Part shown: in pieces, positions 31,868 to 49,712 of the stretch
How the letters are laid out: the number at the start of each line of letters is the position of its first letter
Position numbering within the stretch: position 1 is the first letter of the stretch
Assembly (NCBI GenBank): GCA_024400635.1
Contig: JAKSMI010000002.1
Location: 120,305-184,304 of the forward strand
Length of the DNA stretch: 64,000 bases
Direction: 5' to 3'
From: Bacteroidales bacterium
Lineage (GTDB): Bacteria; Bacteroidota; Bacteroidia; Bacteroidales; WCHB1-69
Notes under the pieces: generated by a model
Told to the model about the DNA's origin: nothing
Database searches by the model: none
What the model saw: the letters and a program-made list of their open reading frames with translations, nothing else
Program-made: the position numbers and the translations under genes

Positions 31868-31971
31868 GGATAGGGGAAAATGTGGCGATTTCAACAGGTT
31901 TTGGGTAAAAAATCTATAATAGTTCACTAATTTTCGGTGAGCTCAACTTGTTGGAAATCAAGATAACAGCA

Positions 31972-33180: not shown

Positions 33181-33325
33181 TGTATATCACATGGAAAGCA
33201 AACAGACAGATTCACATGATTCGTTATCATGGACGAAGTAGAGCATGTATTATTCGACAAAAAGCTTTCTCTGTATAATAAATATTGGACAGCGGACTGT
33301 GCCATGTTTTTTCACACCAATTGCT

Positions 33326-33333
33326 TATCTTTG
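33326..33333 (+). promoter_or_regulatory. Bacteroidota -7 promoter box (TAtcTTTG) upstream of the WYL regulator gene
   Basis: TATCTTTG lies 20 nt upstream of the ATG at 33353. Confidence 0.45.
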
Positions 33334-33352
33334 CCGCAAAAAAGAAATTGTC

Positions 33353-34282: not shown

Positions 34283-34305
34283 CATCAGTTGCAAAAGGAA
34301 TCCTT

Positions 34306-34821
34306 TTACACTATCGGATCTGGACACACATTGCGCCGTTGGCACTTTTCGCACTCGCTACCACGCCACACTTTATCGAATTCCTCAATGACAGCGGTTA
34401 CGAGAGCGTGATCATCGGTGAGGACACCTGCTTCGAAATTGCGGCGGAGGGGCGACTTCATCCCCATTCCCGCGCCCGTGAGGTTCGCGCTGCCCACGTA
34501 GCAGACCGTCTGGTCGATGACGATGATTTTGAAATGTACCCGCGGACACATCACCCGTTCCAGCATCTTGGCCAGTCGTGGGTAGCGGTCGAAGTCGGCG
34601 CGGAAGTTCGGTCCTGGTTCCTTTGCGTGGATCAGCCGCACCTCCACGCCCCTTCCCAGCAGTTCCGCCAGCACCCCGAGAAACGGCTTCTCGATTTTAC
34701 CCTGCAACACGTATAGGTCTTTGATGTCAGCGGTACCAATCCACAACGAGTGCTTGGCCTTCATCGCAAGGTCAAGCACGGTGGTGCAGTGGGAGGAGTC
34801 GGAGATGAGGGTAGTGGGCAT
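34306..34821 (-). CDS. Phospholipase D-family (single-HKD, Nuc-like) nuclease
   Basis: HKD motif HFKIIVIDQTVCYVGSANLTG, and a C-terminal Cys pair (CEKCQRRNVC). The gene is visibly GC-richer than its surroundings. Confidence 0.8.
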   Translation of the reverse strand: MPTTLISDSSHCTTVLDLAMKAKHSLWIGTADIKDLYVLQGKIEKPFLGVLAELLGRGVEVRLIHAKEPGPNFRADFDRYPRLAKMLERVMCPRVHFKIIVIDQTVCYVGSANLTGAGMGMKSPLRRNFEAGVLTDDHALVTAVIEEFDKVWRGSECEKCQRRNVCPDPIV

Positions 34822-34865
34822 TATAAATCGATTATTATCAGTTGTTTAGTGAGCTATATTTCGCA

Positions 34866-34873
34866 CAAATATA
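34866..34873 (-). promoter_or_regulatory. Bacteroidota -7 promoter box (TAtaTTTG, minus strand) upstream of the PLD nuclease gene
   Basis: The plus-strand sequence CAAATATA is the reverse complement of TATATTTG. It lies 45 nt upstream of the ATG at 34821. Confidence 0.4.
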
Positions 34874-34951
34874 ATATTGAAAATTGTACGAAACAGAATT
34901 GGAAAATTTTTGGAACTGCATAAATTTTCGTATGAATTTTTATGATTGCCT

Positions 34952-35024
34952 GCAGACCTACGGTCTGCGTCAAATCCTCGTGCTGTTTCGTTGCTACCAA
35001 GCCCGGCAGACCAAACGGCCTGCC
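34952..35024 (-). other. GC-rich structured intergenic element (two strong hairpins), possible terminator or small RNA
   Basis: Hairpin 1 is GCAGACC-tac-GGTCTGC (34952-34968). Hairpin 2 is an 8-bp stem at 35005-35024 whose single non-Watson-Crick pair is A-C on the plus strand but G-U on the minus strand. Confidence 0.35.
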
Positions 35025-35083
35025 TCCTTTGCAGCGGTTGTCTGAACCATTGTTGGAGGTTTGAGTATATGTTAAAAGCTTTT

Positions 35084-36103
35084 TTATATTGTTTCAAGGC
35101 CAGCGATACCTGTTCTTAGCAACATTTCAGCAAACGTTTTGCCATTGATAAGACGGACATTGTTTTCTTCAGCCTTTCTCATGGCTTCGTCCGAAAAATC
35201 ATCACAAGAGGATATCACCCATAGGACAGAATGATATTCAGTATTTTGGTATTTTTCAGAATTCACAACTATTTGCTTAACTGCGTCATCAGAGGTAGTG
35301 TCTTTATGCCATTTAGCTTGAACCCGTATTGCAACTTTCAATTCTTCAAAATAAGCTACAGCATCAGTGTCCCCATCTTCAGTTCGACTTGAATTTTTAG
35401 CTGGAACTTCAACACGAGCACCCAAGTGTTCAAAATAACTTTTTACAAGCTCCTCGAATTTATTATCCCCTGGCATTTTTCTGATTTTTTCGAGAATTAT
35501 TCCACAAGTGTTTTCTTTGATTTCTGAGTACAGATTTAAAGGTTGTCCTGTTTCAGCACGATTGAGAGCGTCTTCAACATTAGAAGACAAAGATGTTATG
35601 TCTGAATTTATTTGCTGAATTTTCATACGTGAAAACAAAGGACCATCAGCATAAACTCTCGGTATCTTAGTCTTGATAGGTTTAACGTTCCAAAAGAAAC
35701 CTATATCAATTATTCTGTTTGTGTCTTTTTGATAGATATACCCTTCCCGGTATTCAACTTCATTTCCATTCCAATCCTTTGCTCCATTTAGGTCAAGTTT
35801 TTCACATGAATATGGTCGTTCGCCCACAATCTCGAAAAGGCTGAATTCATAAGGTGTTGGAACGAGCACAACATCCCCTTTTTTCATTTCTTTTAGAAAT
35901 CGGTACAAACACCATCTGTTGCGAGGATTTCCCCATGCTTCAAATTTCTCATTGAACTCAGTGTCAAAATTATCAATAAAAGATTCTTCCGAGAAATCAG
36001 ACCAACCAATAGAAAGGATGTTTTTTTCAAACAATAATGGGGTTGATAAAACGATTCCTATCTCTCCGCTTTTGATGCGATGTAACCAATAATTTTTACT
36101 CAT
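35084..36103 (-). CDS. Mrr-type restriction endonuclease with an N-terminal PUA/EVE-like domain (candidate modification-dependent, type IV-like)
   Basis: The C-terminal GDTDAVAYFEELKVAIRVQAKWH fits the Mrr-cat D...(E/Q)xK core. The N-terminal MSKNYWLHRI...NPRNRWCLYRFLKEMKKGDVVLV resembles EVE/PUA-like readers. The start is taken at the ATG at 36103; ATGs at 36139 and 36187 are also possible. Confidence 0.65.
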   Translation of the reverse strand: MSKNYWLHRIKSGEIGIVLSTPLLFEKNILSIGWSDFSEESFIDNFDTEFNEKFEAWGNPRNRWCLYRFLKEMKKGDVVLVPTPYEFSLFEIVGERPYSCEKLDLNGAKDWNGNEVEYREGYIYQKDTNRIIDIGFFWNVKPIKTKIPRVYADGPLFSRMKIQQINSDITSLSSNVEDALNRAETGQPLNLYSEIKENTCGIILEKIRKMPGDNKFEELVKSYFEHLGARVEVPAKNSSRTEDGDTDAVAYFEELKVAIRVQAKWHKDTTSDDAVKQIVVNSEKYQNTEYHSVLWVISSCDDFSDEAMRKAEENNVRLINGKTFAEMLLRTGIAGLETI

Positions 36104-36146
36104 AAATTTATTGTTTAATTTATTGCTTATTGTATGCATGTTTTTT

Positions 36147-36812
36147 TTACAAGAAAACTGAAATTTGGGAAAGTACTTCAAAAGCACCGCAATTATATTC
36201 TCTTATACTATCAATAGCAAGCTGCAACCCCAAAAGTTGTAGCTGACATTTTTCTCTAGTATTCTTGCTCATTTCCATAATTTCCTCTCTATCTGGCACA
36301 ACACCAGATAATGTGAGTTCGCTAAAAGCTTTAGTTGTGATTAAATCATCATCGTCTTTTGATAAAATACCGACAAGAATTGTTTCCATAACGCTAACAG
36401 CATTATTATCTTTATTGTTAAAGCCGATTGTTTTTAGCGCACTTCTTGCCACCTCTTTTAGAACGATTGAATATACATCGGATTCGGGTTGTTCGTATAC
36501 ACCGCCATCAACATATTCAATTTGTTCATCATCTTCTTTATAATCATTCAATCCAAATTGTATGCGTACTGAATATATGGCTTCATCTATTTTATCAAAC
36601 AAGTCTTCTATTTGTTCCTTAACAATCAGATTGTAATCTGGATTATTGTCAGAATAGTCAATAGACTTATTGATTTCATCCTTTAGTTGAGGCAAGTCAT
36701 CATATTCAATCTGGTCAATCTGTTCTTCCAGATAGTTAATATCAGCATCCTGCAGCTGTTTTAGACTCTCTAATCGATTTAAAATTGCTGTAAGCTTGTC
36801 AATGATTTCCAT
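36147..36812 (-). CDS. Highly acidic hypothetical protein
   Basis: The ORF is rich in D/E runs (DDLPQLKDE, YKEDDEQIEYVDGG, SKDDDDL). No domain was recognised. I start at the ATG at 36812 (MEIIDKL). Confidence 0.55.
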   Translation of the reverse strand: MEIIDKLTAILNRLESLKQLQDADINYLEEQIDQIEYDDLPQLKDEINKSIDYSDNNPDYNLIVKEQIEDLFDKIDEAIYSVRIQFGLNDYKEDDEQIEYVDGGVYEQPESDVYSIVLKEVARSALKTIGFNNKDNNAVSVMETILVGILSKDDDDLITTKAFSELTLSGVVPDREEIMEMSKNTREKCQLQLLGLQLAIDSIREYNCGAFEVLSQISVFL

Positions 36813-36886
36813 GTCGCTTTTAATTAACAAACACATGTTTTTCCACTCCGCAAAATTACAAAATTATCCCATTCACCATCATTGCC

Positions 36887-37093
36887 TCAAACAACAATTC
36901 CCTCCTCCTTTTCCACCTTTTCAATGCACTCCTCAATGTCAGCAATCAATTCTTTCAAAAACTCTATTTTTGCCGACTTGTCCGGGAAATTGTCAGGATT
37001 TGCTTCAAATTCACTCTCGATCAAGTCGCTGATTGTGAATTCACATCCTAAATCTTCTTCATCTGGGGCTACATAAAAATAATAATCGTTCAT
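36887..37093 (-). CDS. Very acidic 68-aa hypothetical protein
   Basis: Hand count: 21 D/E versus 5 K and no R in 68 residues. It is tightly packed in the minus-strand operon. Confidence 0.5.
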   Translation of the reverse strand: MNDYYFYVAPDEEDLGCEFTISDLIESEFEANPDNFPDKSAKIEFLKELIADIEECIEKVEKEEGIVV

Positions 37094-37099
37094 GTCTAT

Positions 37100-37612
37100 T
37101 CAATTTTTCTTTTGGTTTTTCTCGTTTGGAATGATTATTCGCTCAATATCATTTACAATTTGATTCCATCCTTGACTATTTTGTTCCTCAAAGGTGGTCA
37201 TGATGTCAATGAAGTTAAAAGAGACGATCGGCTGCTGTTTCAGCCACTTGATGGTTTTATATGATTCCGGCACGAAAACATTCGGTGCCAATTCGCAACT
37301 GTAACGATGCCCCCACAGACAAATCACAGACGTGGGAATGCGTGCAGCAAGATGATACTCTATTCTTCCCTTCAAATCTTCGTTTGTATCTTCGAATGGG
37401 TCCATTCAGGCCACAAAACAGCAGAGGGTCTTTTTTTCGTCAATGCTTGTCTCAATCTTGTCCCATCTTTCACTGGAGCAGCATTCGAACGCCTCGCTTT
37501 CTGCGCTTCTTGACATTATGTATTCCATTATCTCCACCGCTTTTGCTCCCAACGGGACAACGATGACTTTTTCAAAATGTGTGTTGGGGTTGTTAATAAT
37601 ATTCTTGATCAT
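37100..37612 (-). pseudogene. Hypothetical gene interrupted by an in-frame TGA that directly abuts an ATG (68-aa and 101-aa ORFs)
   Basis: ORFs 37406-37612 and 37100-37405 share one frame. They are separated only by TGA (37406-37408), which is followed directly by ATG (37403-37405). Both halves weakly resemble successive parts of the 186-aa protein at 39049-39609. Confidence 0.45.
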
Positions 37613-37730
37613 AACGTTTATATTGTTTTGGAACTAGTAGAATCAACCTCTGTCCGATTTTGATGCGGCAAAAACAGCGCATAGCTGTGCAAAAACGTAG
37701 CGCTGTAGGGTTGTCGCAATTCGGCACCCC

Positions 37731-38225
37731 TCACAATAACCGCATCGCAATCCTCGCACACGCCTCCGCGTCGGCGAGGGCGTGGTGGTGATGCTCCAGA
37801 TGATAGCCGCAGGCTGCCGCTACGGTGTGCAGTTGGTGGTCGGGGAGCTGTTGCCCGAAATGATGACGGGAGGCGCTGCAGGTGCAGTGAAATTCGTAAT
37901 CGGGATAGTCCATCTGATAGACTCGGAACACCGCCCGCAGACAGCTTTCGTCAAACGGGCTGTTGTGTGCCACTAAAGGCAATCTCTCAATCAGTGGCTC
38001 AATTTGTTGCCACACTCCTGGGAACACTGGCGCGTTGTCTGTGTCCTCGTGTGTGAGACCATGAACCTCCTGACAGAACCAGACATAGTAGTCGGGCTCA
38101 GGCTTGATGAGACTGTAAAACGTGTTGGCGATGAGACCGTTGCGCACAATCACCACGCCCACGCTGCATACGCTGCTGCGCTGTCCGTTGGCGGTTTCAA
38201 AATCAATGGCGGCGAAATCTTGCAT
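37731..38225 (-). CDS. DEDDh 3'-5' exonuclease (DnaQ/epsilon-like)
   Basis: ExoI AIDFETAN, ExoII HNSPFDESCL and ExoIII HHALADAEACARI motifs. I start at the ATG at 38225. The gene is visibly GC-rich. Confidence 0.85.
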   Translation of the reverse strand: MQDFAAIDFETANGQRSSVCSVGVVIVRNGLIANTFYSLIKPEPDYYVWFCQEVHGLTHEDTDNAPVFPGVWQQIEPLIERLPLVAHNSPFDESCLRAVFRVYQMDYPDYEFHCTCSASRHHFGQQLPDHQLHTVAAACGYHLEHHHHALADAEACARIAMRLL

Positions 38226-38272
38226 GATTGAACATTCTTTGGGTGTATTATAATGATTGCTTTCTTCCACGC

Positions 38273-38974
38273 TCAATCCAAACTTATCAGCTGATCCATA
38301 AACGCTTCTTGGCAGATATGATAGGTGGTCATACGCATGATGTCAGGAATGCTGAAGCACTGACTGTTACAAAGTTCACAGAAAGAGTAGCAAAACGAGA
38401 TTTCATAGGGCAGCGCGAGGTCTATTTCACACGACTCCTTAAGGGGCAAGCCGTTGTGGTAGGAGTCGTAAAAGTCTCCGCTGCAATAATATAAGCTGTC
38501 GGTCATTTCTATGCTATGTATTGTGTCGAGAATCTCTATGATGTCGTTCCATTGCGAACCGTAGAAACCGTCGTCTTCCCTGATGACAAGTTGCGGATTC
38601 TGATTGTCATGGAAGTAAGTCAAACTGGTGTTTAACTTGTAATCTGGGTGGATGGTTATCAGCTGTTGGTGTCTTTGTTTATGGACTTCCAAAACCTTTG
38701 CTTCCATCTGTACAAGCCGCCTGTTGGTCATTTCCAAATCCCGGATGTTGGCCTCTGAATAGCTCAATTCAAACATGCGATTCAGCAGCGCACAACGTAT
38801 CTCGGCTTTTGTCAATATTCTGTCCTGATTGCTGATGATGAACACCTCCTTGTCATTCTCATCGTAAGAGAGCCTCATAATCTCACTTTCACATTGTCTT
38901 ACATACCGCCGCAGATAGTCTGTGTCAGTTTGCTCTTGTATCTTAATGATTTCTAGATTGTTTTGATTAGTCAT
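38273..38974 (-). CDS. Hypothetical protein (233 aa)
   Basis: A long ORF in the operon with no domain recognised. Confidence 0.5.
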   Translation of the reverse strand: MTNQNNLEIIKIQEQTDTDYLRRYVRQCESEIMRLSYDENDKEVFIISNQDRILTKAEIRCALLNRMFELSYSEANIRDLEMTNRRLVQMEAKVLEVHKQRHQQLITIHPDYKLNTSLTYFHDNQNPQLVIREDDGFYGSQWNDIIEILDTIHSIEMTDSLYYCSGDFYDSYHNGLPLKESCEIDLALPYEISFCYSFCELCNSQCFSIPDIMRMTTYHICQEAFMDQLISLD

Positions 38975-39013
38975 ATTAATAATTTGAATTACACTGGCAA
39001 AAATGGAATGTAT

Positions 39014-39032
39014 GTGTGCTAAAATGTGGCAC
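39014..39032. promoter_or_regulatory. Palindromic operator-like site TGTGCtA-N5-TGGCACA
   Basis: Inverted repeat in the 74-nt gap upstream of the gene starting at 38974. It has the same half-sites and spacing as the site at 39652-39670. Confidence 0.4.
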
Positions 39033-39048
39033 AGTAAACTGCTGGCTA

Positions 39049-39609
39049 TTAGCTATTAGCCGTTGGTTCTCTATTCTTTGGTTTCCTCCCCACAATCATC
39101 TCCGCAACTCTTAGTTCCATGCTTGCCAAAAAGTCCACCAATGGCATATTGCCATAAGCTTTAGATAGTTCTTCCTGCATGTCAATCACGTGGATGTCAT
39201 CCACGCCCAAGAAACGGCGGTCGAGGGGACGGTCGTACAGTTTGGAGGCGAATCGTGGCGGCAAGAGGTAGATGAGATGTCGCTTGATGTTGGCGTGATG
39301 CGCTTTGCACCATAAGAGGTTAACCCCTATGGCTGCAATTTGCAGCTCCGTGTTCGAGCAACCGTGATTTACATTCGGATTCGGGTGAGGCTTGGGTACC
39401 ATGTTCGAGGGCGAGTCCCACACGAGGAGCCACACCTCCACGGACGGGTCGTATAGTCCATCCTCCGCACAATAGAGGTTCTCCCTGACAAAATTTTCAC
39501 TTTCCATCCATTCGTATGCGTATGAGGAGGGCAGGTGCTGCATAATACCCTCTTTGCACTGCACGGCGTTGTAGCCCACAGGAATAATGATGTGTTTCGT
39601 TCTATCCAT
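39049..39609 (-). CDS. Hypothetical protein (186 aa), first gene of the minus-strand operon
   Basis: An ORF with no domain recognised. It shows weak similarity to the split gene at 37100-37612 (HIIIPVGYNAVQCKEGIM vs KVIVVPLGAKAVEIMEYIM; LLWCKAHH vs ICLWGHRY). Confidence 0.5.
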   Translation of the reverse strand: MDRTKHIIIPVGYNAVQCKEGIMQHLPSSYAYEWMESENFVRENLYCAEDGLYDPSVEVWLLVWDSPSNMVPKPHPNPNVNHGCSNTELQIAAIGVNLLWCKAHHANIKRHLIYLLPPRFASKLYDRPLDRRFLGVDDIHVIDMQEELSKAYGNMPLVDFLASMELRVAEMIVGRKPKNREPTANS

Positions 39610-39651
39610 TTTCTTTAATGTTTAAATACGCTGACAAAAATAGAACATCGC

Positions 39652-39670
39652 TGTGCCATATTTTGGCACA
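39652..39670. promoter_or_regulatory. Perfect palindromic operator-like site TGTGCCA-N5-TGGCACA in the divergent promoter region
   Basis: A perfect 7-bp inverted repeat in the 100-nt gap between the divergent operons (39609 minus, 39710 plus). It sits 10 nt upstream of the TAttTTTG box at 39680. Confidence 0.45.
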
Positions 39671-39679
39671 CAATCATTC

Positions 39680-39687
39680 TATTTTTG
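39680..39687 (+). promoter_or_regulatory. Bacteroidota -7 promoter box (TAttTTTG) upstream of the AAA+ ATPase operon
   Basis: TATTTTTG lies 23 nt upstream of the ATG at 39710. Confidence 0.45.
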
Positions 39688-39709
39688 CAACGTTCAAAAT
39701 TATAATGCT

Positions 39710-41440
39710 ATGAAAAAAGAAAACATTTTGCAGACATTGAGTTTTCTGGCGCTGAAAATGGAAAACTCCGGAACTGCCTTGTTAGAGGCAATTGCGCCTG
39801 ATTCTATTGCACATTTAGACTACACATTTACACGGCAGAACGAATCCACCATTCATAAAGAGTTTAGCAAAACAGAGATATGTGAGATTGTTAAAAAGTT
39901 GGAGGATGTCGCCAAATTCCTCGGTATCTCAACCATTCAGGCTGTTATTATGATGGTTGCCTTCTGCAATAAATTCCAAGACAATTATATAGATTGGAAC
40001 GATGTCCACAAATTTTTCAATGTAAAGAGTATGGTGCTGCTTCCTTTGAAAAAAGAATTTGACCGTCTGGTATCTGGTAAATTCCTAAAACGAGCTGGTA
40101 AAAGACATTCTGAATATTATGATATTGAGCAAAAAGTGGTGGACTCCGTAATGAATGAACATCCATTTGACCCTTGTATATTGAAAGAAGCACGTCTCGA
40201 TCGATATAAATTTGTCAACGAAATTTCCGATTTGATCGAGCTACGTAGTGATGACGAGATATCCACCTCCGATCTTTTTGAACGTTCATATGAGATGGAA
40301 CAACAGAACAATACTCTTACTTTTGTTCAGAATGTCAAGAAATTGAATCTTGAGACTAAAGACAGAGTCTTATTCTATGAGATTTGCGACGATTTTCTTG
40401 CTCATGGTGAAACGGGAATCAATTGTACGCTGAAGGACATGTATAGTAATCCTAGCACTCGTTTTCGAATTGCAAAGGAGTTGATGGACGAAAAGCAGAT
40501 TCTGCAAAAGTTAGATTTAGTGATCCTCCTTCGTGACACAATTTTCTCTGATAGTAATTTGACCCTGACCGAAAAAGGGAAACAACTCTTTTTAGAGGAA
40601 GATTTCGAGCTTTTTGCCAAATCCAAAAATCGAGACCATAAAACAATATACCCCGAAGACATTCAAGAAAAGTCCTTGTTTTATGATGAAGAACTCTCGC
40701 GACAGCTAAATCTGCTGAAAGAAAATCTCCAAGAAGAGCGTTTCACAGAGCTGCAAAAACGATTGGAAGAACAGTCGCTACCTAAGGGGGTTGCTGCCAT
40801 CTTCCATGGGCAACCTGGCACAGGGAAAACCGAAACTGCGATGCAAATTGCCAAAGCTACAGGTCGTGCAGTGTGTCACGTGGACATTGCAAGTTCCAAA
40901 AGTTGCTGGTTTGGTGAAAGCGAAAAACTTATTAAGCGTATATTTACCGATTATGCTGGACTGTGCAAAAAATCCCCTCTTAAGCCGATTCTACTTTTCA
41001 ACGAAGCAGACGCTCTCTTTTCCAAACGCAAGGATAGCATTTCATCAAACGTGGCGCAAACAGAGAATGCCATCCAAAACATTATCCTTGAAGAAATGGA
41101 AAAACTGGATGGAATACTCATAGCTACCACCAATCTCATAGATAACTTGGACAGAGCTTTTGAACGACGTTTTCTATTCAAAATCCATTTCAACAATCCC
41201 ACGGTGGAAGCAAAACAATCTATCTGGAAGAGCAAACTCTCTTGGTTGTCTGAAAACGAAAGTCGCATACTCGCAGAACGCTACAATTTCTCAGGCGGCG
41301 AAATCGACAACATCGTCCGCAAGGTTATTATGGATGAGGTACTCAACGGAATACACCCTGACATGCAATTCGTTGAAGAACTATGTCGCTATGAAAAGAT
41401 TGGCAACAAGGAGACGAGCTTTATTGGGTTTAGAAAATGA
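39710..41440 (+). CDS. AAA+ ATPase (classical AAA module at the C-terminus, ~350-aa unknown N-terminal region)
   Basis: Walker A GQPGTGKT, Walker B ILLFNEADALF, sensor-1 ATTN and an arginine-finger region ERRF. I start at the ATG at 39710. Confidence 0.8.
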   Translation: MKKENILQTLSFLALKMENSGTALLEAIAPDSIAHLDYTFTRQNESTIHKEFSKTEICEIVKKLEDVAKFLGISTIQAVIMMVAFCNKFQDNYIDWNDVHKFFNVKSMVLLPLKKEFDRLVSGKFLKRAGKRHSEYYDIEQKVVDSVMNEHPFDPCILKEARLDRYKFVNEISDLIELRSDDEISTSDLFERSYEMEQQNNTLTFVQNVKKLNLETKDRVLFYEICDDFLAHGETGINCTLKDMYSNPSTRFRIAKELMDEKQILQKLDLVILLRDTIFSDSNLTLTEKGKQLFLEEDFELFAKSKNRDHKTIYPEDIQEKSLFYDEELSRQLNLLKENLQEERFTELQKRLEEQSLPKGVAAIFHGQPGTGKTETAMQIAKATGRAVCHVDIASSKSCWFGESEKLIKRIFTDYAGLCKKSPLKPILLFNEADALFSKRKDSISSNVAQTENAIQNIILEEMEKLDGILIATTNLIDNLDRAFERRFLFKIHFNNPTVEAKQSIWKSKLSWLSENESRILAERYNFSGGEIDNIVRKVIMDEVLNGIHPDMQFVEELCRYEKIGNKETSFIGFRK

Positions 41441-42185: not shown

Positions 42186-42203
42186 CCGCAGGTTCCATAC
42201 CAT

Positions 42204-42273
42204 ACGCCCTCGCCGAAAAGCGTTCAATAGAGTAGGCATTTTTAAAAGTTGTGCCCGACACGTACTAGGGAGA
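42204..42273 (+). repeat. Conserved leader element, copy A (upstream of the 79-aa ORF)
   Basis: ACGCCC..GCCGAAAAGCGTTCAATAGAGTAGGCA - variable spacer - AGTTGtGCCCGACACGTAcTAGGGA. It ends 0-5 nt before an ATG. Its counterpart lies at 43647-43720. Confidence 0.8.
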
Positions 42274-42513
42274 ATGATTATGCCGCAAATGATAGTCTAT
42301 AATGGGGAACTGATACGTATTAGCCCCAAAAACAAGAGAAAAATAGAGGTGTCTACTAATCATGGTGGATCATGGATGACCCGCTGTGTTGGATCTGCCA
42401 GCACTGGAGAATTCCTTGATTTGGTAAACAATGGATCTGAGATAATTGCCACCACCGAAAAAGGGCTGTTCGTCTCTTCCAACAACGGAGGATCTTGGAT
42501 AAGAAGAAGTTAA
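42274..42513 (+). CDS. Small protein with two degenerate BNR/Asp-box-like motifs (STNHGGSW, SSNNGGSW)
   Basis: A 79-aa ORF starting right after leader copy A. The S-x-N-x-G-G-S-W motif occurs twice. Confidence 0.5.
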   Translation: MIMPQMIVYNGELIRISPKNKRKIEVSTNHGGSWMTRCVGSASTGEFLDLVNNGSEIIATTEKGLFVSSNNGGSWIRRS

Positions 42514-42539: not shown

Positions 42540-42818
42540 ATGAGAAATTTAAAAAACAACATGCTGGCACTGATACTTGTGATTTGCAATTTTGCTGTCT
42601 ATGCAGAAACTGCTTCGGAAGCTGCCAACCCTTCAGAATCCAACATTTTCATTGAGATCTTGGTTTACGCTTTGATTTTCGGAATCCCATTGTTGGTGAT
42701 TATCCGAAAAATTAGGCGAAAAATCAGGAACTTCAAGGAGGATGTAAAAAGTGGCGGTTTCGGAGAAGCAACCATGAGCCGTTTGGAAGACCATTTCGAC
42801 AGAAAGAACAAGAAATAG
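42540..42818 (+). CDS. Small secreted/membrane protein (signal peptide + one TM + basic tail)
   Basis: MRNLKNNMLALILVICNFAVYA signal, a TM helix (IFIEILVYALIFGIPLLVII), and then RKIRRKIRNFK. Confidence 0.5.
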   Translation: MRNLKNNMLALILVICNFAVYAETASEAANPSESNIFIEILVYALIFGIPLLVIIRKIRRKIRNFKEDVKSGGFGEATMSRLEDHFDRKNKK

Positions 42819-42838: not shown

Positions 42839-43678
42839 ATGAATCTTAAATTCTTTTTCAGTTCCATTGTTTCGAACCGCTATTTTGAGTGGACGATAAC
42901 GATTGTTATTCTCGTGAACGCGGTACTTATCGGTATCGAACTAAATGTTTGTGATCCCACCATCGAACTGATACAGAGGATTATTTTGCTGATTTTTACC
43001 GTGGAAATCCTGATGCGATTCATGGCGAGAGAAAATGTGAGGGAGTTTTTCTCTAACGGTTGGAACATCTTCGACCTCGCTCTTGTGTTGATTGGTTATA
43101 TTCCAGAGGATCTTTTTGCCAATGCTTCCGCCATGATGGCTATTAGGGTGCTCCGTGTATTGCGCGTACTTCGATTGCTCAGGGCTGGAAAAGAAATCAA
43201 ACTTATCACTACTGTGCTTACCAAATCGATGGTTTCAATGGTGTGGTACGTCATCCTGTTTGCGATTTTCATTTACCTGTTTGCTATAATAGGGGTAAGC
43301 ATGTTCAAGTTGCCCGACCCCGAAAAGCTAACGCAAGAAGACCGCTCAAGATACGAACAGTTTATGCGTGAAGTTCACAACGCCCCCGACAACTCTCCTG
43401 ACCCGTTCGGGTCGTTGTCGGAAGCAATGTTTACTCTATTTCGCGAGCTAACAGGCGAGGATTGGACAGACCTGCGTTACAACACTATCTCCGCCTACGA
43501 GTACGGCGTTATCCGAGTGAATCCTGTGGTCATCACGACCTACCACATACTTTGGTTTTCGCTGTCAGTCTTCCTGTTGCTGAACTTAGTTACAGGATCA
43601 ATCATCAATAACTATCAAAACATAAAGGAAGAGCAAAATAGTCAAAACGCCCCAGCCGAAAAGCGTTCAATAGAGTAG
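42839..43678 (+). CDS. Six-TM voltage-gated-type cation channel (BacNav/ion_trans family) with a TGEDW selectivity-filter motif
   Basis: S1-S6 can be laid out by eye. S4 is RVLRVLRVLRLLR, with Arg at every third position. The pore helix and filter read AMFTLFRELTGEDWTDLRY. Confidence 0.82.
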   Translation: MNLKFFFSSIVSNRYFEWTITIVILVNAVLIGIELNVCDPTIELIQRIILLIFTVEILMRFMARENVREFFSNGWNIFDLALVLIGYIPEDLFANASAMMAIRVLRVLRVLRLLRAGKEIKLITTVLTKSMVSMVWYVILFAIFIYLFAIIGVSMFKLPDPEKLTQEDRSRYEQFMREVHNAPDNSPDPFGSLSEAMFTLFRELTGEDWTDLRYNTISAYEYGVIRVNPVVITTYHILWFSLSVFLLLNLVTGSIINNYQNIKEEQNSQNAPAEKRSIE

Positions 43679-43720
43679 GCAAAAAATTCTAGCAGTTGCG
43701 CCCGACACGTATTAGGGAAA
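43647..43720 (+). repeat. Conserved leader element, copy B (overlaps the channel gene 3' end, upstream of the 73-aa ORF)
   Basis: Same blocks as copy A: a 27-nt identical core GCCGAAAAGCGTTCAATAGAGTAGGCA, then AGTTGcGCCCGACACGTAtTAGGGA. Confidence 0.8.
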
Positions 43721-43725: not shown

Positions 43726-43947
43726 ATGAGTAAGGTTTATAGAATCACACCGAAAGCTATTCACAGAACAAACAACACCGTTCTGACTCCTGAGATGGAA
43801 ATCATCGTGACTTTAGAGCGTCACACATCCGATCCATTCTACAATGGTGCAAAAGAAATCAAAGCCATGTATATGGACAGATATGGTTTTGATTATGAGC
43901 GGGCGAATGCTACAAAAGCTTGGTTTGATTATGAGAGATTAGACTAA
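43726..43947 (+). CDS. Small soluble hypothetical protein (73 aa)
   Basis: An ORF starting 5 nt after leader copy B (MSKVYRITPKAIHRTNNTVLTPEMEIIVT...). It resembles small proteins I recall from Bacteroidota mobile elements, but I cannot name a family with certainty. Confidence 0.5.
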   Translation: MSKVYRITPKAIHRTNNTVLTPEMEIIVTLERHTSDPFYNGAKEIKAMYMDRYGFDYERANATKAWFDYERLD

Positions 43948-44093: not shown

Positions 44094-44173
44094 AAAGTTC
44101 TCTTAAAGTTCTCTTAAAGTTCTCTTAAAGTTCTCTTAAAGTTCTCTTGAAACTCCCCTACTTTAAGAGAACT
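44094..44173. repeat. Iteron-like array: five tandem 11-bp repeats (AAAGTTCTCTT) plus one inverted copy
   Basis: Five perfect head-to-tail units span 44094-44148. The inverted copy TTAAGAGAACT at 44163-44173 overlaps the stop codon of the minus-strand gene. Confidence 0.9.
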
Positions 44174-45860
44174 ATTTTCGTCTCCATAACTTCTTCTCTC
44201 CAAAAACTATTTTGTCTGCTTTTCGTAGAGACGTTAGCAAGTTACCTATCTTGGATACTTTCTGTTTGTCAGTTAAAGCTTCGGGTAATTTCGTCATCAA
44301 CAGCGTATCAATTTCAGGACGACTCATTGTCACATGTTGATCCAATGCTTTTAGGATAAGATCCTTGTAGTAATTATCATCGAATCCCTTGTTACGAGTG
44401 TATTCCGCTTTTTGACCTGTAGCTTTGGCCACACTCTTGGCAAAAAACAATGCATTCTTTCGACCTTCAATCAGTTTGCGCTTTCTCAAGTAAGCAATTT
44501 CCTCATCACTTAGTGGACGATTGGTTTGTAACCTGCTCAACATTTCAATGTCAAGCAAAGTCAGTGTTTTGTCTCTGGTCAAGAGCATGGCATAGTCAAT
44601 GTCCACCACTTTGCCGATAATCGTCACTTTAACCCTATCGTCACTAAATTCATAATCAGGCATAGGGAATAAGCGTTCGCGTTGTTTGTTAAACATCCGT
44701 CTGATACCGCTGCCAATCGTATCCACCATGCCCAATTCCACCATTGCTGTTGCCAGAAACCTGTTACGATAATGTTCCTCAGGAGCATCGTTTATCAACA
44801 CATTCTTAATGCTGTTGGGAATGAAAGTCCCCAAATTGGTAAAGATCAGTCGGTCTTCTTCCTCTATTACGTTAATCATTCCATAACGTCCATAGTCCTG
44901 ATGAGCTATGGCATTATTTAATGCTTCCCGAATGATAAAAGGGTCGTATGTATCCAGCTCGTCTGGCACTAGCGAAAGAAGTTCTGGATTCATATATCTG
45001 TACTTCCAGTTGCGTATTTTCCTGTAAACCGTATTAGCTGCAATAACAAACGGACATGTTTCAATGGAGAAATCTTTCTCTTCACCGTTGGAATCCTTGT
45101 ATATCCATCTGATACGTGCAACAGCTGGCGAAATAAAATGTTCGCTCTCGGTGCGTCCCAACAATAATATTGCGGTATTGGTTATCTGGCCTTGTTTGGT
45201 TATCTTTGCTTTGTTCAGAAACCTCACATCATCCCACGATTTCATCTCCACTATCAGGTCTTCGTGTTTCTTGGCGTACATCTTGCGAGCTTCTTTGATG
45301 GCATCGGGATCAAGATCGTCAAATGTGGCATCTTTTACGATTTCGGCACTCCAGTCTTTCTGTGAGTTGTATATTTGGCGAACATAGTCTGGAAAATCTT
45401 TGAGTTTCGTCAGATTGCTTCCAACCCTCACATAAGCAGCTCCCTTGAAATTTACAGGTTCTCCTGCCGCAGCCTGTATCTCGAAAATAACAATGTGTTT
45501 GTCTTCGTACTCGAACTCCTCTATTTCAAAGGGGGTAATGGGCGAACAGTTTTTTCTAAGCCATAGTTCATAATCCTGATTGCCATATTTAGCTGTCGGC
45601 ATTCTCAGATTAGTTCCAACCACATTCCATGTCCCATCCTCCACTCCTAGAACCAAATAACCGTGTGATTTGTATTTCAAGCAGGCTGAATTGGAAAGAC
45701 CAGAGATGTAGTTTCCAACCCCCTCATACGTAACGCTGCATCGAGACTCGCCAATATTAGTCTTAAACTCCATCCATTCCGTTTCTCCAGCACTTTGGCG
45801 TTGGCGAGCCTGTGCCAACAGATCCTCCAACAGTATATATTGTTCTTCAATTGTTTTCAT
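44172..45860 (-). CDS. AlbA_2/Schlafen-like DNA-binding domain protein with a GHKL-type ATPase-like region and C-terminal wHTH (often annotated RecG-like or putative transcriptional regulator)
   Basis: 562 aa and a paralogue of 55175-56845. Shared blocks include FLNKAKIT..G.IT.TA.LLLG, ARIRW, REALNNAIAHQDY and RMFNKQRERLFPMPDY. The family call is from recall. Confidence 0.65.
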   Translation of the reverse strand: MKTIEEQYILLEDLLAQARQRQSAGETEWMEFKTNIGESRCSVTYEGVGNYISGLSNSACLKYKSHGYLVLGVEDGTWNVVGTNLRMPTAKYGNQDYELWLRKNCSPITPFEIEEFEYEDKHIVIFEIQAAAGEPVNFKGAAYVRVGSNLTKLKDFPDYVRQIYNSQKDWSAEIVKDATFDDLDPDAIKEARKMYAKKHEDLIVEMKSWDDVRFLNKAKITKQGQITNTAILLLGRTESEHFISPAVARIRWIYKDSNGEEKDFSIETCPFVIAANTVYRKIRNWKYRYMNPELLSLVPDELDTYDPFIIREALNNAIAHQDYGRYGMINVIEEEDRLIFTNLGTFIPNSIKNVLINDAPEEHYRNRFLATAMVELGMVDTIGSGIRRMFNKQRERLFPMPDYEFSDDRVKVTIIGKVVDIDYAMLLTRDKTLTLLDIEMLSRLQTNRPLSDEEIAYLRKRKLIEGRKNALFFAKSVAKATGQKAEYTRNKGFDDNYYKDLILKALDQHVTMSRPEIDTLLMTKLPEALTDKQKVSKIGNLLTSLRKADKIVFGEKKLWRRK

Positions 45861-46365: not shown

Positions 46366-47628
46366 CTACATCACCTCTTTGTAGAGTTGTTCTTTTATTG
46401 CTTTGCTCTGCATCATTGCACTTGTCCGTAACGAGTTAATGTATCCTTGCGTGGTTGTGGGGTTGGCGTGTCCCATATCCATTTGTATATCCATTAGAGA
46501 CCTCCCATTCTCACACTGAAAACTCGCATAAGTATGCCTTGCCTGCGCCATAGTGGTGTGCGGTAATCCGAGTTCTTCGGTGACCATACGGAGTCCCATA
46601 TTGGCACGGTAGTTAATATCGTTGATTCTGTCGTTAATTTGTCTCTCTGTATGAGTGTTAGCAAGAAAGGGGAAGATGTAGTCGTTAGGGCACGACTTAT
46701 TCACGCTCCCATATTTCGTGATGAGTTGCATCCCCAAGTCTGTAGGATAGATCGAAACGGGTATCGCGTGGCGTTTTGTTTTGTGTCTAACAAACTCGAT
46801 TTTCCACCCCACTTCCGTCAGACTAATGTTTTTGTTCTTGAGGCGCAAGATGTCACTCAAGTAATGTCCGTTGAGGTCAAATGATAGAACAAAAAAGTCT
46901 CTGCCAAATTGCGCCTTCTCATCAGAACTTCTGTATGCAAGTATTTGCTGGAGGCTATGAACCGTCAAGCCGTAATTAACCTTCCTTGTTGAAGTGAGTG
47001 AAAACTTCTTAAACGGGCGTTTGTCCTCAATGTATCCTTTCTCTACCGCGTAATTATAGACCGCCCTTATGCTCCTAAAATACATATTGACGGTGTTTTG
47101 CGAAATATCAGGTCTGTAGCGGTGCATAAAGGTGTCCAGCCGCGATAGCATTTCTCCCGTGATTTCATCCAATGTGATTCTGTCCTTGAACTTCACTATC
47201 CAATTCAAAGCAGTGTGATATGCTGATATGGTTCTGTCCGATAGTGGTCGAGTTCTATTGGCGTCTGACAAGTACTCTGCAAAAATAGTTCGCATATCGT
47301 AGGCACTGGAAGTTTCTCCGCGAATCATCTTTTTATAGTCTCGGTAGAATGATTCAAAACTAAACGAGTCTCCGAGTTTTCCTATTATCTCAATAGCGGC
47401 GTTGTAGTCAGCGCGAATCTCCTCATAAGCCTCCTTGTACTTCTTGAGGTGCTTGTTCTGGAACTCCGCCGCCGTTAATTGTATTGTGCTATTGGTTGCG
47501 AAATAGCGGGGGATCCGATTATATGTGATCCGCAACTCAAGTGTGCGTTTGTCACTAATTGGTTCGGACATTGTTTTACTCCTCCTGTGATTTCGCACTA
47601 TTTCAACGGCTGGTTTTTTCATACTCAA
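46366..47628 (-). CDS. Tyrosine recombinase / integrase (second, distinct from the one at 31972)
   Basis: The catalytic region is ARHTYASFQCENGRSLMDIQMDMGHANPTTTQGYI. It is adjacent to attR and transcribed into the island. Confidence 0.85.
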   Translation of the reverse strand: MSMKKPAVEIVRNHRRSKTMSEPISDKRTLELRITYNRIPRYFATNSTIQLTAAEFQNKHLKKYKEAYEEIRADYNAAIEIIGKLGDSFSFESFYRDYKKMIRGETSSAYDMRTIFAEYLSDANRTRPLSDRTISAYHTALNWIVKFKDRITLDEITGEMLSRLDTFMHRYRPDISQNTVNMYFRSIRAVYNYAVEKGYIEDKRPFKKFSLTSTRKVNYGLTVHSLQQILAYRSSDEKAQFGRDFFVLSFDLNGHYLSDILRLKNKNISLTEVGWKIEFVRHKTKRHAIPVSIYPTDLGMQLITKYGSVNKSCPNDYIFPFLANTHTERQINDRINDINYRANMGLRMVTEELGLPHTTMAQARHTYASFQCENGRSLMDIQMDMGHANPTTTQGYINSLRTSAMMQSKAIKEQLYKEVM

Positions 47629-47859: not shown

Positions 47860-47955
47860 ACTGTTAATCAGAGGGTCCTAGGTTCAAGTCCTAGAGGGAG
47901 CGCAACCACAAAGCACCAATTCTCAATGAATTAGGTGCTTTTTTTGTTGCCTTCC
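47860..47955 (+). repeat. Direct repeat 2 (attR-like): displaced 3' half of tRNA-Asn plus terminator
   Basis: See repeat 1. It lacks the 5' half of the tRNA, so it is not a functional tRNA gene. Confidence 0.9.
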
Positions 47956-49653: not shown

Positions 49654-49654
49654 T

Positions 49655-49682: not shown

Positions 49683-49712
49683 GTTTTACTACAACAGAAG
49701 GAGGGCTGACGT

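What the first reader, a model, noticed from the sequence alone, without database searches (positions are those of the whole stretch)
42839..43678. Mobile-element-borne BacNav-like channel with a calcium-channel-type TGEDW(T)D filter
The protein has the full 6-TM layout. S4 has five Arg residues at every third position (RVLRVLRVLRLLR). The pore reads FTLFRELTGEDWTDLRY.

Characterised bacterial sodium channels have TLESW in this position. The engineered Ca-selective CavAb has TLDDWSD or TLDDWSN. LTGEDW is the motif I recall from domain II of eukaryotic Cav channels. The extra acidic residues (E, D and a following D) suggest divalent-cation selectivity.

Two further features are atypical. The S5-to-pore linker is long and charged (about 40 aa, PDPEKLTQEDRSRYEQFMREVHNAPDNSPDP). 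The gene is cargo of a genomic island in an anaerobe-type genome rather than a core gene.
Basis: partly seen in the sequence, partly recalled or inferred. Interest (0 to 1): 0.7.

Follow-up and report, generated by a model that had tools for sequence, protein, structure and literature searches.

The report
Island-borne Bacteroidales voltage-gated cation channel
This is a real, intact voltage-gated cation channel gene from an uncharacterised clade of gut and rumen Bacteroidales; this copy rides on a tRNA-Asn genomic island full of anti-phage genes, and its acidic pore motif most resembles bacterial channels that conduct sodium and are blocked by calcium, not proven calcium channels.

Summary
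The ORF (42839-43678, +, 279 aa) is exactly as described. It is a full 6-TM Ion_trans protein with five S4 arginines, and TGEDWTD sits at the selectivity-filter position. It belongs to a large, uncharacterised, mostly Bacteroidales clade with an almost invariant TG[ED]DWTD filter, an inserted turret helix and no C-terminal coiled coil. In my tree the clade is separate from the Bacillus BacNavs, NavAb-like channels and eukaryotic repeats, and it does not group with the AnclNavs.

The TGEDW core does match eukaryotic Cav domain II. The whole filter, however, is NavPp's TLEDWTD with Leu2 changed to Gly. NavPp is Na+-preferring and Ca2+-blocked, and the same Leu-to-Gly change in NavAb creates Ca2+ block. 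Calcium selectivity is therefore possible but not the best-supported prediction.

The island claim holds. A 16.1-kb element is bounded by a ~95-nt tRNA-Asn direct repeat and two integrases, and it carries defence-type genes. This applies only to the subclade at 74% identity or above. There the channel always follows a small membrane protein, often behind a DUF805b-type leader. More distant relatives sit among housekeeping genes.

The parts
42839..43678 (+). Channel gene, 279 aa: single-domain 6-TM voltage-gated cation channel of the TG[ED]DWTD clade
   Evidence: ORF. Pfam Ion_trans E=2.3e-45. AF2 pLDDT 86.6. Foldseek hits NavAb, CavAb, NaChBac and CatSper with target-normalised TM 0.7-0.83. 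dN/dS is 0.17 and 0.03 against relatives.
43124..43192 (+). S4 voltage sensor (aa 96-118): R103, R106, R109, R112, R115 and K118 at every third position
   Evidence: Translation. R103, R106, R109 and R112 are nearly invariant in 66 relatives. The countercharges E56 and D79 are invariant.
43307..43414 (+). S5-P1 turret (aa 157-192), a 36-aa charged insertion containing a predicted helix at 166-178
   Evidence: About 26-aa gap in the alignments to NaChBac and NavPp. AF2 helix 166-178 with block pLDDT 86-90. The LPDP...Y..F...NSPDPFG pattern is conserved in the family consensus.
43451..43471 (+). Selectivity filter TGEDWTD (aa 205-211), between the P1 and P2 helices
   Evidence: Aligned to TLESW, TLEDWTD and TGEDWN filters. 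119 of 120 close homologues have TGEDWTD and one has TGEGWTD. W209 is invariant; T205, G206, E207, D208, T210 and D211 are at least 90% conserved.
42540..42818 (+). orf92: small membrane protein (signal or N-terminal segment, one TM, conserved basic tail IRKIRRKIRNFKEDVK..GGFGEATMSRLED). It lies 20 nt upstream of the channel and is its constant partner in the island-borne subclade.
   Evidence: Homologues directly upstream of the channel in L005, L006, L085, L086 and L094. In L006 and L094 it carries an SH3_3 ectodomain. In L089-L093 an SH3_3 multi-TM protein occupies the same position. No Pfam or PADLOC hit.
42274..42513 (+). orf79: small protein with two 'GGSW' repeats, the first gene after leader copy 1
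   Evidence: ORF. Homologues at 44-46% identity in L006, L094 and L095, and 95% in L005. No gene was called here on the metagenome contigs, so coding status is uncertain.
42203..42271 (+). Leader copy 1: a DUF805b-like RNA motif (42203-42238) plus the conserved 17-mer GTTGTGCCCGACACGTA, ending just before the orf79 ATG
   Evidence: Rfam RF02914, 32 bits, E=1e-6, below the gathering score of 35.6. Direct repeat with copy 2. The 17-mer is conserved upstream of the module in L005, L006, L085 and L086.
43646..43718 (+). Leader copy 2: DUF805b RNA motif (43646-43681) plus the 17-mer. It overlaps the last codons and stop of the channel gene and precedes the DUF6140 gene.
   Evidence: Rfam RF02914, 37.4 bits, above the gathering score of 35.6. 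The alignment shows a 4-bp stem with one G-C to C-G flip relative to the consensus.
43726..43947 (+). DUF6140-like small protein (73 aa), downstream of the channel
   Evidence: Weak Pfam DUF6140 hit. The precomputed annotation gives PF19637. An 84%-identical homologue occurs elsewhere in the L092/L093 islands.
31742..31816 (+). tRNA-Asn (GTT), the integration target
   Evidence: ARAGORN. Rfam tRNA, 72.6 bits.
31773..31867 (+). attL: the 3' half of tRNA-Asn plus its downstream terminator hairpin
   Evidence: Direct-repeat families D5 and D6, 98-100% identical to 47860-47955. Only two copies exist in the window.
47860..47955 (+). attR: duplicated tRNA-Asn 3' half plus terminator. The island spans about 16.1 kb between the repeats.
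31948..33180 (+). Integrase-like gene next to attL (Arm-DNA-binding and SAM-like N-terminal domains). No catalytic-domain hit was reported.
   Evidence: Pfam Phage_int_SAM_5, SAM_1 and Arm-DNA-bind_5.
46366..47628 (-). Tyrosine integrase next to attR
   Evidence: Pfam Phage_integrase plus SAM-like domains. 100% identical on metagenome contigs L002 and L003, and 61% identical in L005.
33245..41440 (.). Defence-type island cargo: WYL regulator (33245-34282, +), PLD nuclease (34306-34821, -), Mrr-like nuclease (35084-36187, -), DEDDh/RNase_T exonuclease (37731-38276, -) and an IetA-like AAA ATPase (39653-41440, +), plus unknown ORFs
   Evidence: Pfam. PADLOC hits to WYL, DrmC-like, PDC-S02/ZorD nuclease, DEDDh/PDC-S48 and IetA.
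44172..45860 (-). Schlafen AlbA_2 plus HATPase_c_4 protein (defence-type cargo), between the channel module and the integrase
   Evidence: Pfam. Weak PADLOC hits to pAgo-associated domains.

Best explanation
The gene encodes a functional single-domain channel subunit that assembles as a homotetramer into a voltage-gated cation channel. S4 carries five arginines, and the conserved acidic countercharges in S2 and S3 let it sense depolarisation. The S6 NLxxGxxxNN hinge opens the gate. Ions pass a filter built from four copies of TGEDWTD, which gives 12 acidic side chains.

The protein belongs to a distinct, uncharacterised clade that is mostly Bacteroidota. It shares a fold and general mechanism with the BacNav and AnclNav channels. 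It differs by Gly at filter position 2, a structured 36-aa acidic turret and the absence of a C-terminal coiled coil.

The most likely permeation phenotype is inferred, not shown. I expect a Na+-conducting, partly Ca2+-permeable channel whose filter binds divalent cations tightly enough to be blocked or modulated by external Ca2+/Mg2+. I think a highly Ca2+-selective channel is less likely.

This copy belongs to a subclade that travels as a small module: a DUF805b-type leader, a small ORF, a small membrane protein (single-TM or SH3_3-bearing) and the channel. The module sits on tRNA-Asn-integrating Bacteroidales islands that otherwise carry anti-phage genes.
For: Shown. Intact ORF and full-length Ion_trans match. 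Confident 6-TM/P1/P2 model with NavAb, CavAb and NaChBac as best structural matches. The filter is in register with known filters. The motif is present in 119 of 120 homologues, and gating residues are invariant. Purifying selection, dN/dS 0.03-0.17. The clade has 100% bootstrap support and is separate from the Bacillus (99.5%), NavAb-like (92%) and eukaryotic (96%) groups. The median tail after S6 is 20 aa. att repeats, tRNA-Asn and integrases are present. The module and its defence-type surroundings recur in at least 7 arrangements.

Inferred from published experiments. NavPp (TLEDWTD) has PCa/PNa 0.31 with Ca2+ block, and its T6S and T6A mutants are still not Ca2+-selective (PMC7041947). 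NavAb L176G acquires Ca2+ block with low Ca2+ permeability because of a cavity under the filter (PMC10349818; PDB 8HA1/8HA2 are among the fold hits). EukCatB has TGESWSE with a very long turret and is Na+-selective (PMC8002053).
Against: No electrophysiology exists for any clade member. In canonical BacNav backgrounds the same acidic pattern does give Ca2+ selectivity (TLEDWSD in NavAb, TLEDWAD in NaChBac; cited). The Asp after the filter Glu is universally conserved in Cav domain II and is thought to be needed for Ca2+ selectivity (PMC4436565). Background dependence therefore cuts both ways. The clade is only 28-29% identical to NavPp and NaChBac. The acidic turret could change local ion concentrations. 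Tetramer assembly without a coiled coil is assumed, not modelled.
Confidence: 0.55

Rival explanations
1. It is a native homotetrameric Ca2+-selective channel (a prokaryotic Cav). Four copies of E207, D208 and D211 form a high-affinity Ca2+ site as in CavAb or Cav domain II.
For: The TGEDW core is identical to Cav1 domain II, and its Asp is universally conserved in Cavs (eukaryotic repeat II). TLEDWSD in NavAb and TLEDWAD in NaChBac are Ca2+-selective (cited in PMC7041947). There are three acidic residues per subunit and an acidic turret.
Against: NavPp has the same E, D, T and D residues and prefers Na+ (PCa/PNa 0.31) with Ca2+ block. Grafting the 'Cav' filters into NavPp did not give Ca2+ selectivity. 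CavMr needs Gly4 and Val6, and its G4D mutant loses selectivity. Leu-to-Gly at position 2 in NavAb produced block, not permeation. Authors in the field state that selectivity cannot be predicted from acidic-residue counts (PMC8002053).
Confidence: 0.3
2. In this subclade, the pair of small membrane protein and channel is itself an anti-phage or island-benefit module. The channel would act as an effector that collapses or reads membrane potential, as in abortive infection. It would not be a housekeeping ion pathway.
For: In every sampled locus of the subclade at 74% identity or above, the pair lies among GmrSD, McrBC, Mrr, PLD, WYL, DEDDh, Fic/RhuM, KAP-NTPase, IetA-like AAA and Schlafen genes. 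The arrangements differ, and integrases are sometimes adjacent. The pair shares a leader element with other island cassettes. The partner gene is conserved. The channel is under strong purifying selection.
Against: The evidence is association only. There is no PADLOC match for the channel or its partners. There are no homologues in phage records. The wider family sits in ordinary chromosomal contexts without the partner, so the channel has an autonomous function. WYL, PLD and RNase_T recur with it, so all of them may be island backbone genes rather than independent associations.
Confidence: 0.15
3. The gene derives from a eukaryotic Cav repeat by horizontal transfer. Conversely, the clade could be the closest prokaryotic relative of the eukaryotic four-domain channel repeats.
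For: The top solved-structure sequence hits are Cav3, Cav2 and Cav1, and those alignments run through the turret and pore. The clade shares TGEDW and a long S5-P1 loop with eukaryotic repeats. The split that keeps the AnclNav, Bacillus and NavAb-like groups together and apart from the TG clade and eukaryotes was the most frequent deep split (34.5%).
Against: The Cav ranking comes from summing four repeats. The best single repeat scores 60 bits in the solved-structure search, against 81-91 bits for NaChBac and NavRh. Eukaryotic repeats from the metagenome library reach 50-85 bits, against 87-94 bits summed for NaChBac and the AnclNavs. Eukaryotic repeats form their own clade (96%), and the TG clade is deep and broad within Bacteroidota, down to 40% identity. 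The tree is unrooted NJ and the deep nodes are unresolved.
Confidence: 0.07

Closest known systems
NavPp (Plesiocystis pacifica) and other 'ancestor-like' BacNavs (AnclNav; Shimomura et al. 2020, PMC7041947)
   Same: Single 6-TM subunit. The filter TLEDWTD differs from TGEDWTD at one position only. The P1/P2 context is the same (FRxxTxEDWTDxxY). The P2-S6 loop is longer than in NavAb. This group gives the best summed similarity among characterised channels (89-94 bits).
   Different: Gly instead of Leu or Phe at filter position 2. A 26-aa turret insertion with a helix. No long C-terminal tail or coiled coil. Only 28% identity. It did not group with the AnclNavs in the NJ tree (3%), although the AnclNavs themselves were not recovered as monophyletic.
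NavAb L176G mutant (PDB 8HA1/8HA2; Irie et al. 2023, PMC10349818)
   Same: It has Gly at filter position 2 (TGESW). The fold is the same, with target-normalised TM 0.81-0.83. It is the only experimental test of that substitution, and it gave divalent-cation block.
   Different: It is an engineered mutant in a TLESWSM background, without Asp at positions 4 and 7.
Eukaryotic Cav1/Cav2 repeat II (TGEDWNS)
   Same: The five-residue core TGEDW is identical. The S5-P1 loop is long. The alignment runs contiguously through the pore.
   Different: It is one of four non-identical repeats forming an EEEE locus, whereas here the filter is a homotetramer with 4 x (E, D, D). The eukaryotic repeats form a separate clade (96%).
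CavMr (Meiothermus ruber), the only native prokaryotic Cav
   Same: Single-domain channel with E3 and D7 in the filter (TLEGWVD).
   Different: Its Ca2+ selectivity depends on Gly4 and Val6, and here those positions are Asp4 and Thr6. CavMr G4D loses Ca2+ selectivity. One natural relative of the window protein has TGEGWTD.
EukCatB (Emiliania huxleyi), a single-domain eukaryotic channel with filter TGESWSE
   Same: Thr-Gly at filter positions 1-2 and an unusually long S5-to-pore loop. It is Na+-selective (PMC8002053).
   Different: Ser4 rather than Asp4, a C-terminal EF-hand and a eukaryotic host. No sequence was available here for a phylogenetic test.
Canonical BacNavs (NaChBac, NavAb, NavMs)
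   Same: Fold, S4 pattern and the S6 NLxxGxxxNN hinge. 29% identity to NaChBac over the full length.
   Different: Filter TLESW, short turret, C-terminal four-helix bundle, and separate clades.

Membership tests
Voltage-gated cation channel superfamily (Pfam Ion_trans, 6-TM) | Full-length match to PF00520 above the gathering score | tested here: met
   155.1 bits against a cut-off of 25; profile positions 1-240 of 241.
Voltage-gated cation channel superfamily (Pfam Ion_trans, 6-TM) | S4 with basic residues at every third position, plus acidic countercharges in S2 and S3 | tested here: met
   R103, R106, R109, R112 and R115. E56 and D79 are invariant, and F53 and R60 are at least 90% conserved.
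Voltage-gated cation channel superfamily (Pfam Ion_trans, 6-TM) | Re-entrant P-loop (P1 helix, filter, P2 helix) between S5 and S6 | tested here: met
   AF2 helices at 193-204 and 209-221 flank TGED. Structural matches to NavAb and CavAb.
Canonical BacNav (NaChBac / NavAb groups) | Filter motif TLESW | tested here: not met
   The filter is TGEDW.
Canonical BacNav (NaChBac / NavAb groups) | C-terminal coiled-coil / four-helix bundle after S6 | tested here: not met
   21 residues follow the S6 NN motif here, and the family median is 20. The tails are 40-58 residues in the NaChBac, NavAb and NavPp sequences.
Canonical BacNav (NaChBac / NavAb groups) | Phylogenetic grouping with the Bacillus or NavAb-like clades | tested here: not met
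   The TG clade has 100% support on its own. TG plus Bacillus was recovered in 0.5% of bootstraps.
AnclNav (ancestor-like BacNav, Shimomura 2020) | Filter of the type T[LF]E[DG]W[TV][DE] | tested here: inconclusive
   6 of 7 positions match NavPp. Position 2 is Gly, which none of the 16 AnclNav sequences used here has.
AnclNav (ancestor-like BacNav, Shimomura 2020) | Phylogenetic grouping with CavMr and NavPp | tested here: inconclusive
   TG plus AnclNav was recovered in 3% of bootstraps. The AnclNavs alone were recovered in only 5.5%, so the NJ tree cannot decide. The AnclNavs give the highest summed bit scores.
Native prokaryotic Cav (CavMr type) | Gly at filter position 4 and Val at position 6, shown to be required for Ca2+ selectivity | tested here: not met
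   The residues here are Asp4 and Thr6.
Native prokaryotic Cav (CavMr type) | Measured PCa/PNa much greater than 1 | not testable with these tools
   This requires electrophysiology.
Eukaryotic four-domain Cav | Four homologous repeats in one polypeptide | tested here: not met
   279 aa with a single Ion_trans domain.
Eukaryotic four-domain Cav | Repeat II filter TGEDW | tested here: met
   Identical five-residue core.
tRNA-integrated genomic island | A tRNA gene at one boundary and a direct repeat of its 3' end at the other | tested here: met
   tRNA-Asn at 31742-31816. The repeats at 31773-31867 and 47860-47955 are 98-100% identical, and there are only two copies.
tRNA-integrated genomic island | Tyrosine recombinase next to an att site | tested here: met
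   46366-47628 has Phage_integrase. 31948-33180 has Arm-binding and SAM-like domains.
tRNA-integrated genomic island | An empty site in a related genome | not tested
   L005 carries the same island family with a diverged integrase. No empty tRNA-Asn site was retrieved.
Known or candidate anti-phage defence systems (PADLOC-DB 2.0) | HMM match of the channel or its partner proteins | tested here: not met
   No hits for the channel, orf92, orf79, orf209 or DUF6140.
DUF805b RNA motif (Rfam RF02914) | Covariance-model score at or above the gathering threshold | tested here: met
   43646-43681 scores 37.4 against 35.6. L085 and L086 score 35.6. 42203-42238 scores 32 and falls below.

The most novel reading that the evidence does not exclude
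A two- or three-gene module (a small periplasm-facing SH3_3 or single-TM membrane protein plus a voltage-gated cation channel, under a DUF805b-type leader shared with other cassettes) is a resident functional unit of Bacteroidales defence islands. It could be a new kind of anti-phage or island-maintenance system whose effector or sensor is a voltage-gated channel. Separately, the whole clade could be a natural homotetramer carrying the Cav domain II filter, whose selectivity is set by Gly2 and Asp4.
Probability: 0.15. Interest if true: 0.85.

Novelty: new variant of a known kind. Interest (0 to 1): 0.55.

Why it matters
No voltage-gated channel from the dominant gut and rumen Bacteroidales has been characterised. 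This clade combines the NavPp/ancestral WTD filter tail, the Cav domain II TGEDW core and the Gly2 residue that was only recently linked to divalent block. All of this sits in a small homotetramer that could be expressed and crystallised. Measuring it would test directly how Gly2 and Asp4 set Na+/Ca2+ selectivity versus block, which is an open question in the CavAb, CavMr and NavPp literature.

The clade's turret helix and missing coiled coil make it look more like a eukaryotic repeat than other bacterial channels do. That bears on the origin of four-domain channels.

The consistent pairing with a membrane partner inside defence islands is an unexplored link between bacterial electrical signalling and mobile or defence genetics.

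Tried and rejected
1. 'Closest to eukaryotic Cav'. The solved-structure ranking results from summing four repeats. Per-repeat scores are lower than for BacNavs and AnclNavs.

2. The 72-nt direct repeat as a cassette or recombination scar, or as a structured RNA. It has only two copies in the window, and folding is no better than for shuffled sequences. It turned out to be two copies of a DUF805b-type leader plus a conserved 17-mer that precedes several genes in related islands. The scar idea was dropped.

3. A conserved family-wide neighbourhood or partner. Clustering of flanking ORFs in 80 loci found none; the best cluster covers 11 loci.

4. A tandem island array. There is no third att copy.

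5. Phage or plasmid carriage. No phage hit, and the plasmid hits are only distant chromid genes.

6. A known defence family. No PADLOC hit.

7. Literature on this clade or on TGEDWTD. Nothing was found in the searchable library.

8. EukCat sequences for the tree. They could not be found by name in the supplement. The two CatSper sequences that were retrieved are more distant.

9. A pseudogene or decaying cargo. Rejected on the intact ORF and low dN/dS.
Full report
OBSERVATION. The ORF is present exactly as reported: 42839..43678 on the + strand, ATG start, 279 aa. It matches Pfam Ion_trans end to end (E=2.3e-45, profile positions 1-240 of 241). S4 reads AIRVLRVLRVLRLLRAGK, with Arg at 103, 106, 109, 112 and 115. 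The pore reads FTLFRELTGEDWTDLRY. The S5-P1 linker is 36 aa, with 8 acidic and 5 basic residues. BLASTP to NaChBac (29% identity) and NavPp (28%) aligns the full length. It puts TGEDW on TLESW and TLEDW and leaves a gap of about 26 aa in the turret. An 84-sequence MAFFT alignment puts it in the same column as the filters of the BacNavs, the AnclNavs and all four eukaryotic repeats.

An AlphaFold2 model built on 66 relatives is confident (pLDDT 86.6, pTM 0.71). It shows S1-S4, S4-S5/S5, an extra helix at 166-178 inside the turret, P1 (193-204), the filter, P2 (209-221) and S6. Foldseek returns NavAb, CavAb, NaChBac and CatSper. The refutation condition 'TGEDW is not at the filter, or there is no pore helix' is therefore not met.

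WHAT FAMILY IT IS. A word-indexed search found 1609 homologues. The top 120 are at least 57% identical, 260-330 aa long, and named only 'ion transporter' or 'voltage-gated sodium channel' in Bacteroidales, Muribaculaceae, Bacteroidaceae and Limisoma MAGs. Of those, 119 carry TGEDWTD and one carries TGEGWTD. A scan of species-representative genomes found 192 loci. All 80 listed loci are from Bacteroidales-type genomes, including Prevotella, Muribaculaceae, Paludibacteraceae, Alistipes, Barnesiella and Dysgonomonas. The closest has 98% protein identity and comes from a water-buffalo reticulum MAG.

The exhaustive representative search adds single-domain relatives at 37-54% identity. These carry TG[ED]DWTDLRY, and one has TLEDWTD. 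They include Saprospiraceae and the rumen gammaproteobacterium Ruminobacter, which has TGDDWSN. Across 66 aligned members, W209, E56, D79, G253, N249 and N258 are invariant. The four main S4 arginines and T205, G206, E207, D208, T210 and D211 are at least 90% conserved. The family has only about 20 residues after S6, so it lacks the BacNav C-terminal coiled coil.

RELATION TO KNOWN CHANNELS. The solved-structure search ranks eukaryotic Cav3, Cav2 and Cav1 first. This happens because four repeats are summed. The best single repeat there scores about 60 bits, against 81-91 for NaChBac and NavRh. In a local per-domain comparison the summed scores are 89-94 bits for the AnclNavs, 87 for NaChBac and 62 for NavAb. 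Single eukaryotic repeats score 50-85 bits, and CatSper scores 30-62.

I built a bootstrapped NJ tree (241 columns, 200 replicates). The TG[ED]DWTD proteins form a clade in 100% of replicates, separate from the Bacillus BacNavs (99.5%), the NavAb-like channels (92%) and eukaryotic repeats (96%). Grouping with the AnclNavs was recovered in 3% of replicates. The AnclNavs themselves were recovered in only 5.5%, so deep relationships are unresolved. I therefore treat this as a distinct clade of the BacNav/AnclNav-type superfamily. I do not file it as a member of any named group. No paper in the searchable library mentions TGEDWTD or this clade.

ION SELECTIVITY. The closest characterised whole filter, however, is TLEDWTD of NavPp, which is also the predicted ancestral BacNav filter. 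NavPp prefers Na+ (PCa/PNa 0.308) and is blocked by external Ca2+. Converting its filter to the 'Cav' sequences TLEDWSD or TLEDWAD did not make it Ca2+-selective. CavMr's selectivity needs Gly4 and Val6 and falls with G4D. The single difference from NavPp, Gly at position 2, has been tested. NavAb L176G gains divalent-cation block, with low Ca2+ permeability. Crystal structures (8HA1, 8HA2) show an extra cavity under the filter where hydrated Ca2+ stalls (PMC10349818). EukCatB has TGESWSE with a very long turret and is Na+-selective (PMC8002053).

Against this, the same acidic pattern does confer Ca2+ selectivity in the NavAb and NaChBac backgrounds. My estimates are about 0.55 for a Na+-conducting, partly Ca2+-permeable, divalent-blocked channel and about 0.3 for a Ca2+-selective one. 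Only electrophysiology can decide.

GENOMIC CONTEXT IN THE WINDOW. Core genes lie to the left: IleRS, UppS, a MiaB-like radical-SAM gene and YitT. tRNA-Asn is at 31742-31816. Its 3' half plus the downstream terminator (31773-31867) is repeated at 47860-47955 with 98-100% identity, and there is no third copy. The 16.1 kb in between carries integrase genes at both ends (31948-33180 + and 46366-47628 -). It also carries a WYL regulator, a PLD nuclease, an Mrr-like nuclease, a DEDDh exonuclease, an IetA-like AAA ATPase and a Schlafen/AlbA_2 protein. Several of these match PADLOC defence models. The channel lies inside this element.

To the right of attR is a type I R-M cluster interrupted by Fic, YhcG, Schlafen and AAA_14 genes, followed by core genes. 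Identical copies of the island segment occur on contigs from four metagenome runs. L005 carries the same island family, with 95.8% nucleotide identity over 6.9 kb, a diverged integrase and a tRNA-Asn-like end.

IS THE FAMILY GENERALLY MOBILE? No. None of the window's island genes recurs next to the channel in L007-L084. There is no family-wide conserved neighbourhood. Members at about 60% identity sit next to Rnf and polysaccharide-utilisation genes, next to PEPCK, UPRTase and guanylate kinase, or next to what look like priA, guaA and aroK.

The subclade at 74% identity or above behaves differently. It includes the window, L005, L006, and the loci of P0002, P0007, P0009 and P0010. In every locus of this subclade the channel is directly preceded by a small membrane protein. 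This is either the orf92 type (one TM plus a conserved basic tail) or an SH3_3-bearing TM protein. The surroundings are GmrSD, McrBC, PLD, WYL, RNase_T, Fic/RhuM, KAP-NTPase, PDDEXK_4 and AAA_14/DUF4143 genes, in at least seven arrangements. Integrases are adjacent in L092 and L093. WYL, PLD and RNase_T recur at 60-90% identity, so this is one island family. The channel in this subclade is under strong purifying selection, with dN/dS of 0.17 against L005 and 0.03 against L089.

CIS ELEMENT. The ~72-nt direct repeat at 42203-42271 and 43646-43718 is not a scar. Its first half matches the Rfam DUF805b cis-regulatory motif. The downstream copy scores 37.4 bits, above the gathering score, and the upstream copy scores 32 bits. 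One stem pair is flipped in a compensatory way. Its second half is a 17-mer, GTTGYGCCCGACACGTA, about 15-20 nt before an ATG. The motif or its core precedes the channel module in L005, L006, L085 and L086, and it precedes other cassettes in L090 and L094. It is absent from the other 80 loci fetched at that point (L007-L084, L087, L088). Copy 2 overlaps the channel's last codons (AEKRSIE*). The unit therefore reads: leader, orf79, orf92, channel, leader, DUF6140.

VERDICT. The object is a new, uncharacterised variant clade of a known kind of channel. It has an unexpected, consistent association with a membrane partner and defence islands in one subclade. The defence-module reading rests on association only; there is no PADLOC match and no phage homologue. 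I give it about 0.15.

Noticed in passing
window 42203-42271 and 43646-43718; also L005, L085, L086, L089, L090, L094, L095: A DUF805b-type Rfam motif plus a conserved 17-mer (GTTGYGCCCGACACGTA) acts as a repeated leader in front of several different cassettes in this family of Bacteroidales islands, not only the channel. It may be a shared promoter or operator, for example for the island's WYL regulator.
   Followed up: partly
window 44083-44159: A tandem array of an 11-nt unit (AAAGTTCTCTT, about 6 copies) lies between the DUF6140 gene and the 3' end of the Schlafen gene (family D2).
   Followed up: no
window 31948-33180: The attL-proximal integrase-like protein has Arm-DNA-binding and SAM-like N-terminal domains. 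No Phage_integrase catalytic-domain hit was reported at E<=0.01. One att-bounded island therefore has two recombinase genes, and one of them may be divergent or degenerate.
   Followed up: no
window 48103-62131: A type I R-M system (HsdM 48103, HsdS 53447, HsdR 59009) is interrupted by a Fic/Bro gene, two YhcG nucleases, two 23S_rRNA_IVP genes, a second Schlafen/AlbA_2 gene and an AAA_14/DUF4143 ATPase. This forms a chromosomal defence hotspot directly adjacent to the tRNA-Asn island.
   Followed up: partly
protein P-series hit (1 of 120): One natural family member carries TGEGWTD, which has the CavMr-like Gly at filter position 4. It is a ready-made comparison for selectivity experiments.
   Followed up: no
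P0129 / P0274 (Ruminobacter, WP_093140261.1): A TG-clade channel with filter TGDDWSN occurs in the rumen gammaproteobacterium Ruminobacter. This suggests inter-phylum transfer within the rumen.
   Followed up: no
L027, L068, L029 and about 8 other loci: In 9-11 of the 80 loci the channel lies near a recurring set of genes. From the sequences these look like an SPFH/band-7-like 466-aa protein, a zinc-ribbon 289-aa protein, a GYF-like 116-aa protein and a small multi-TM protein. This may be a membrane-stress module. These domain labels were not checked against Pfam.
   Followed up: no
L028 and L032 (the same MAG, Muribaculaceae Horse_feces112): Two paralogous TG-clade channel genes occur in one genome.
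   Followed up: no
P0121 (414 aa): The best representative hit has an N-terminal extension of about 120 aa before the channel domain. This may be a fused domain.
   Followed up: no
window 27761-28053 (within ORF 27697-28119, minus strand): 54-nt tandem repeats encode the repeats of a beta-flower-type protein. This is coding repetition and is unrelated to the finding.
   Followed up: no
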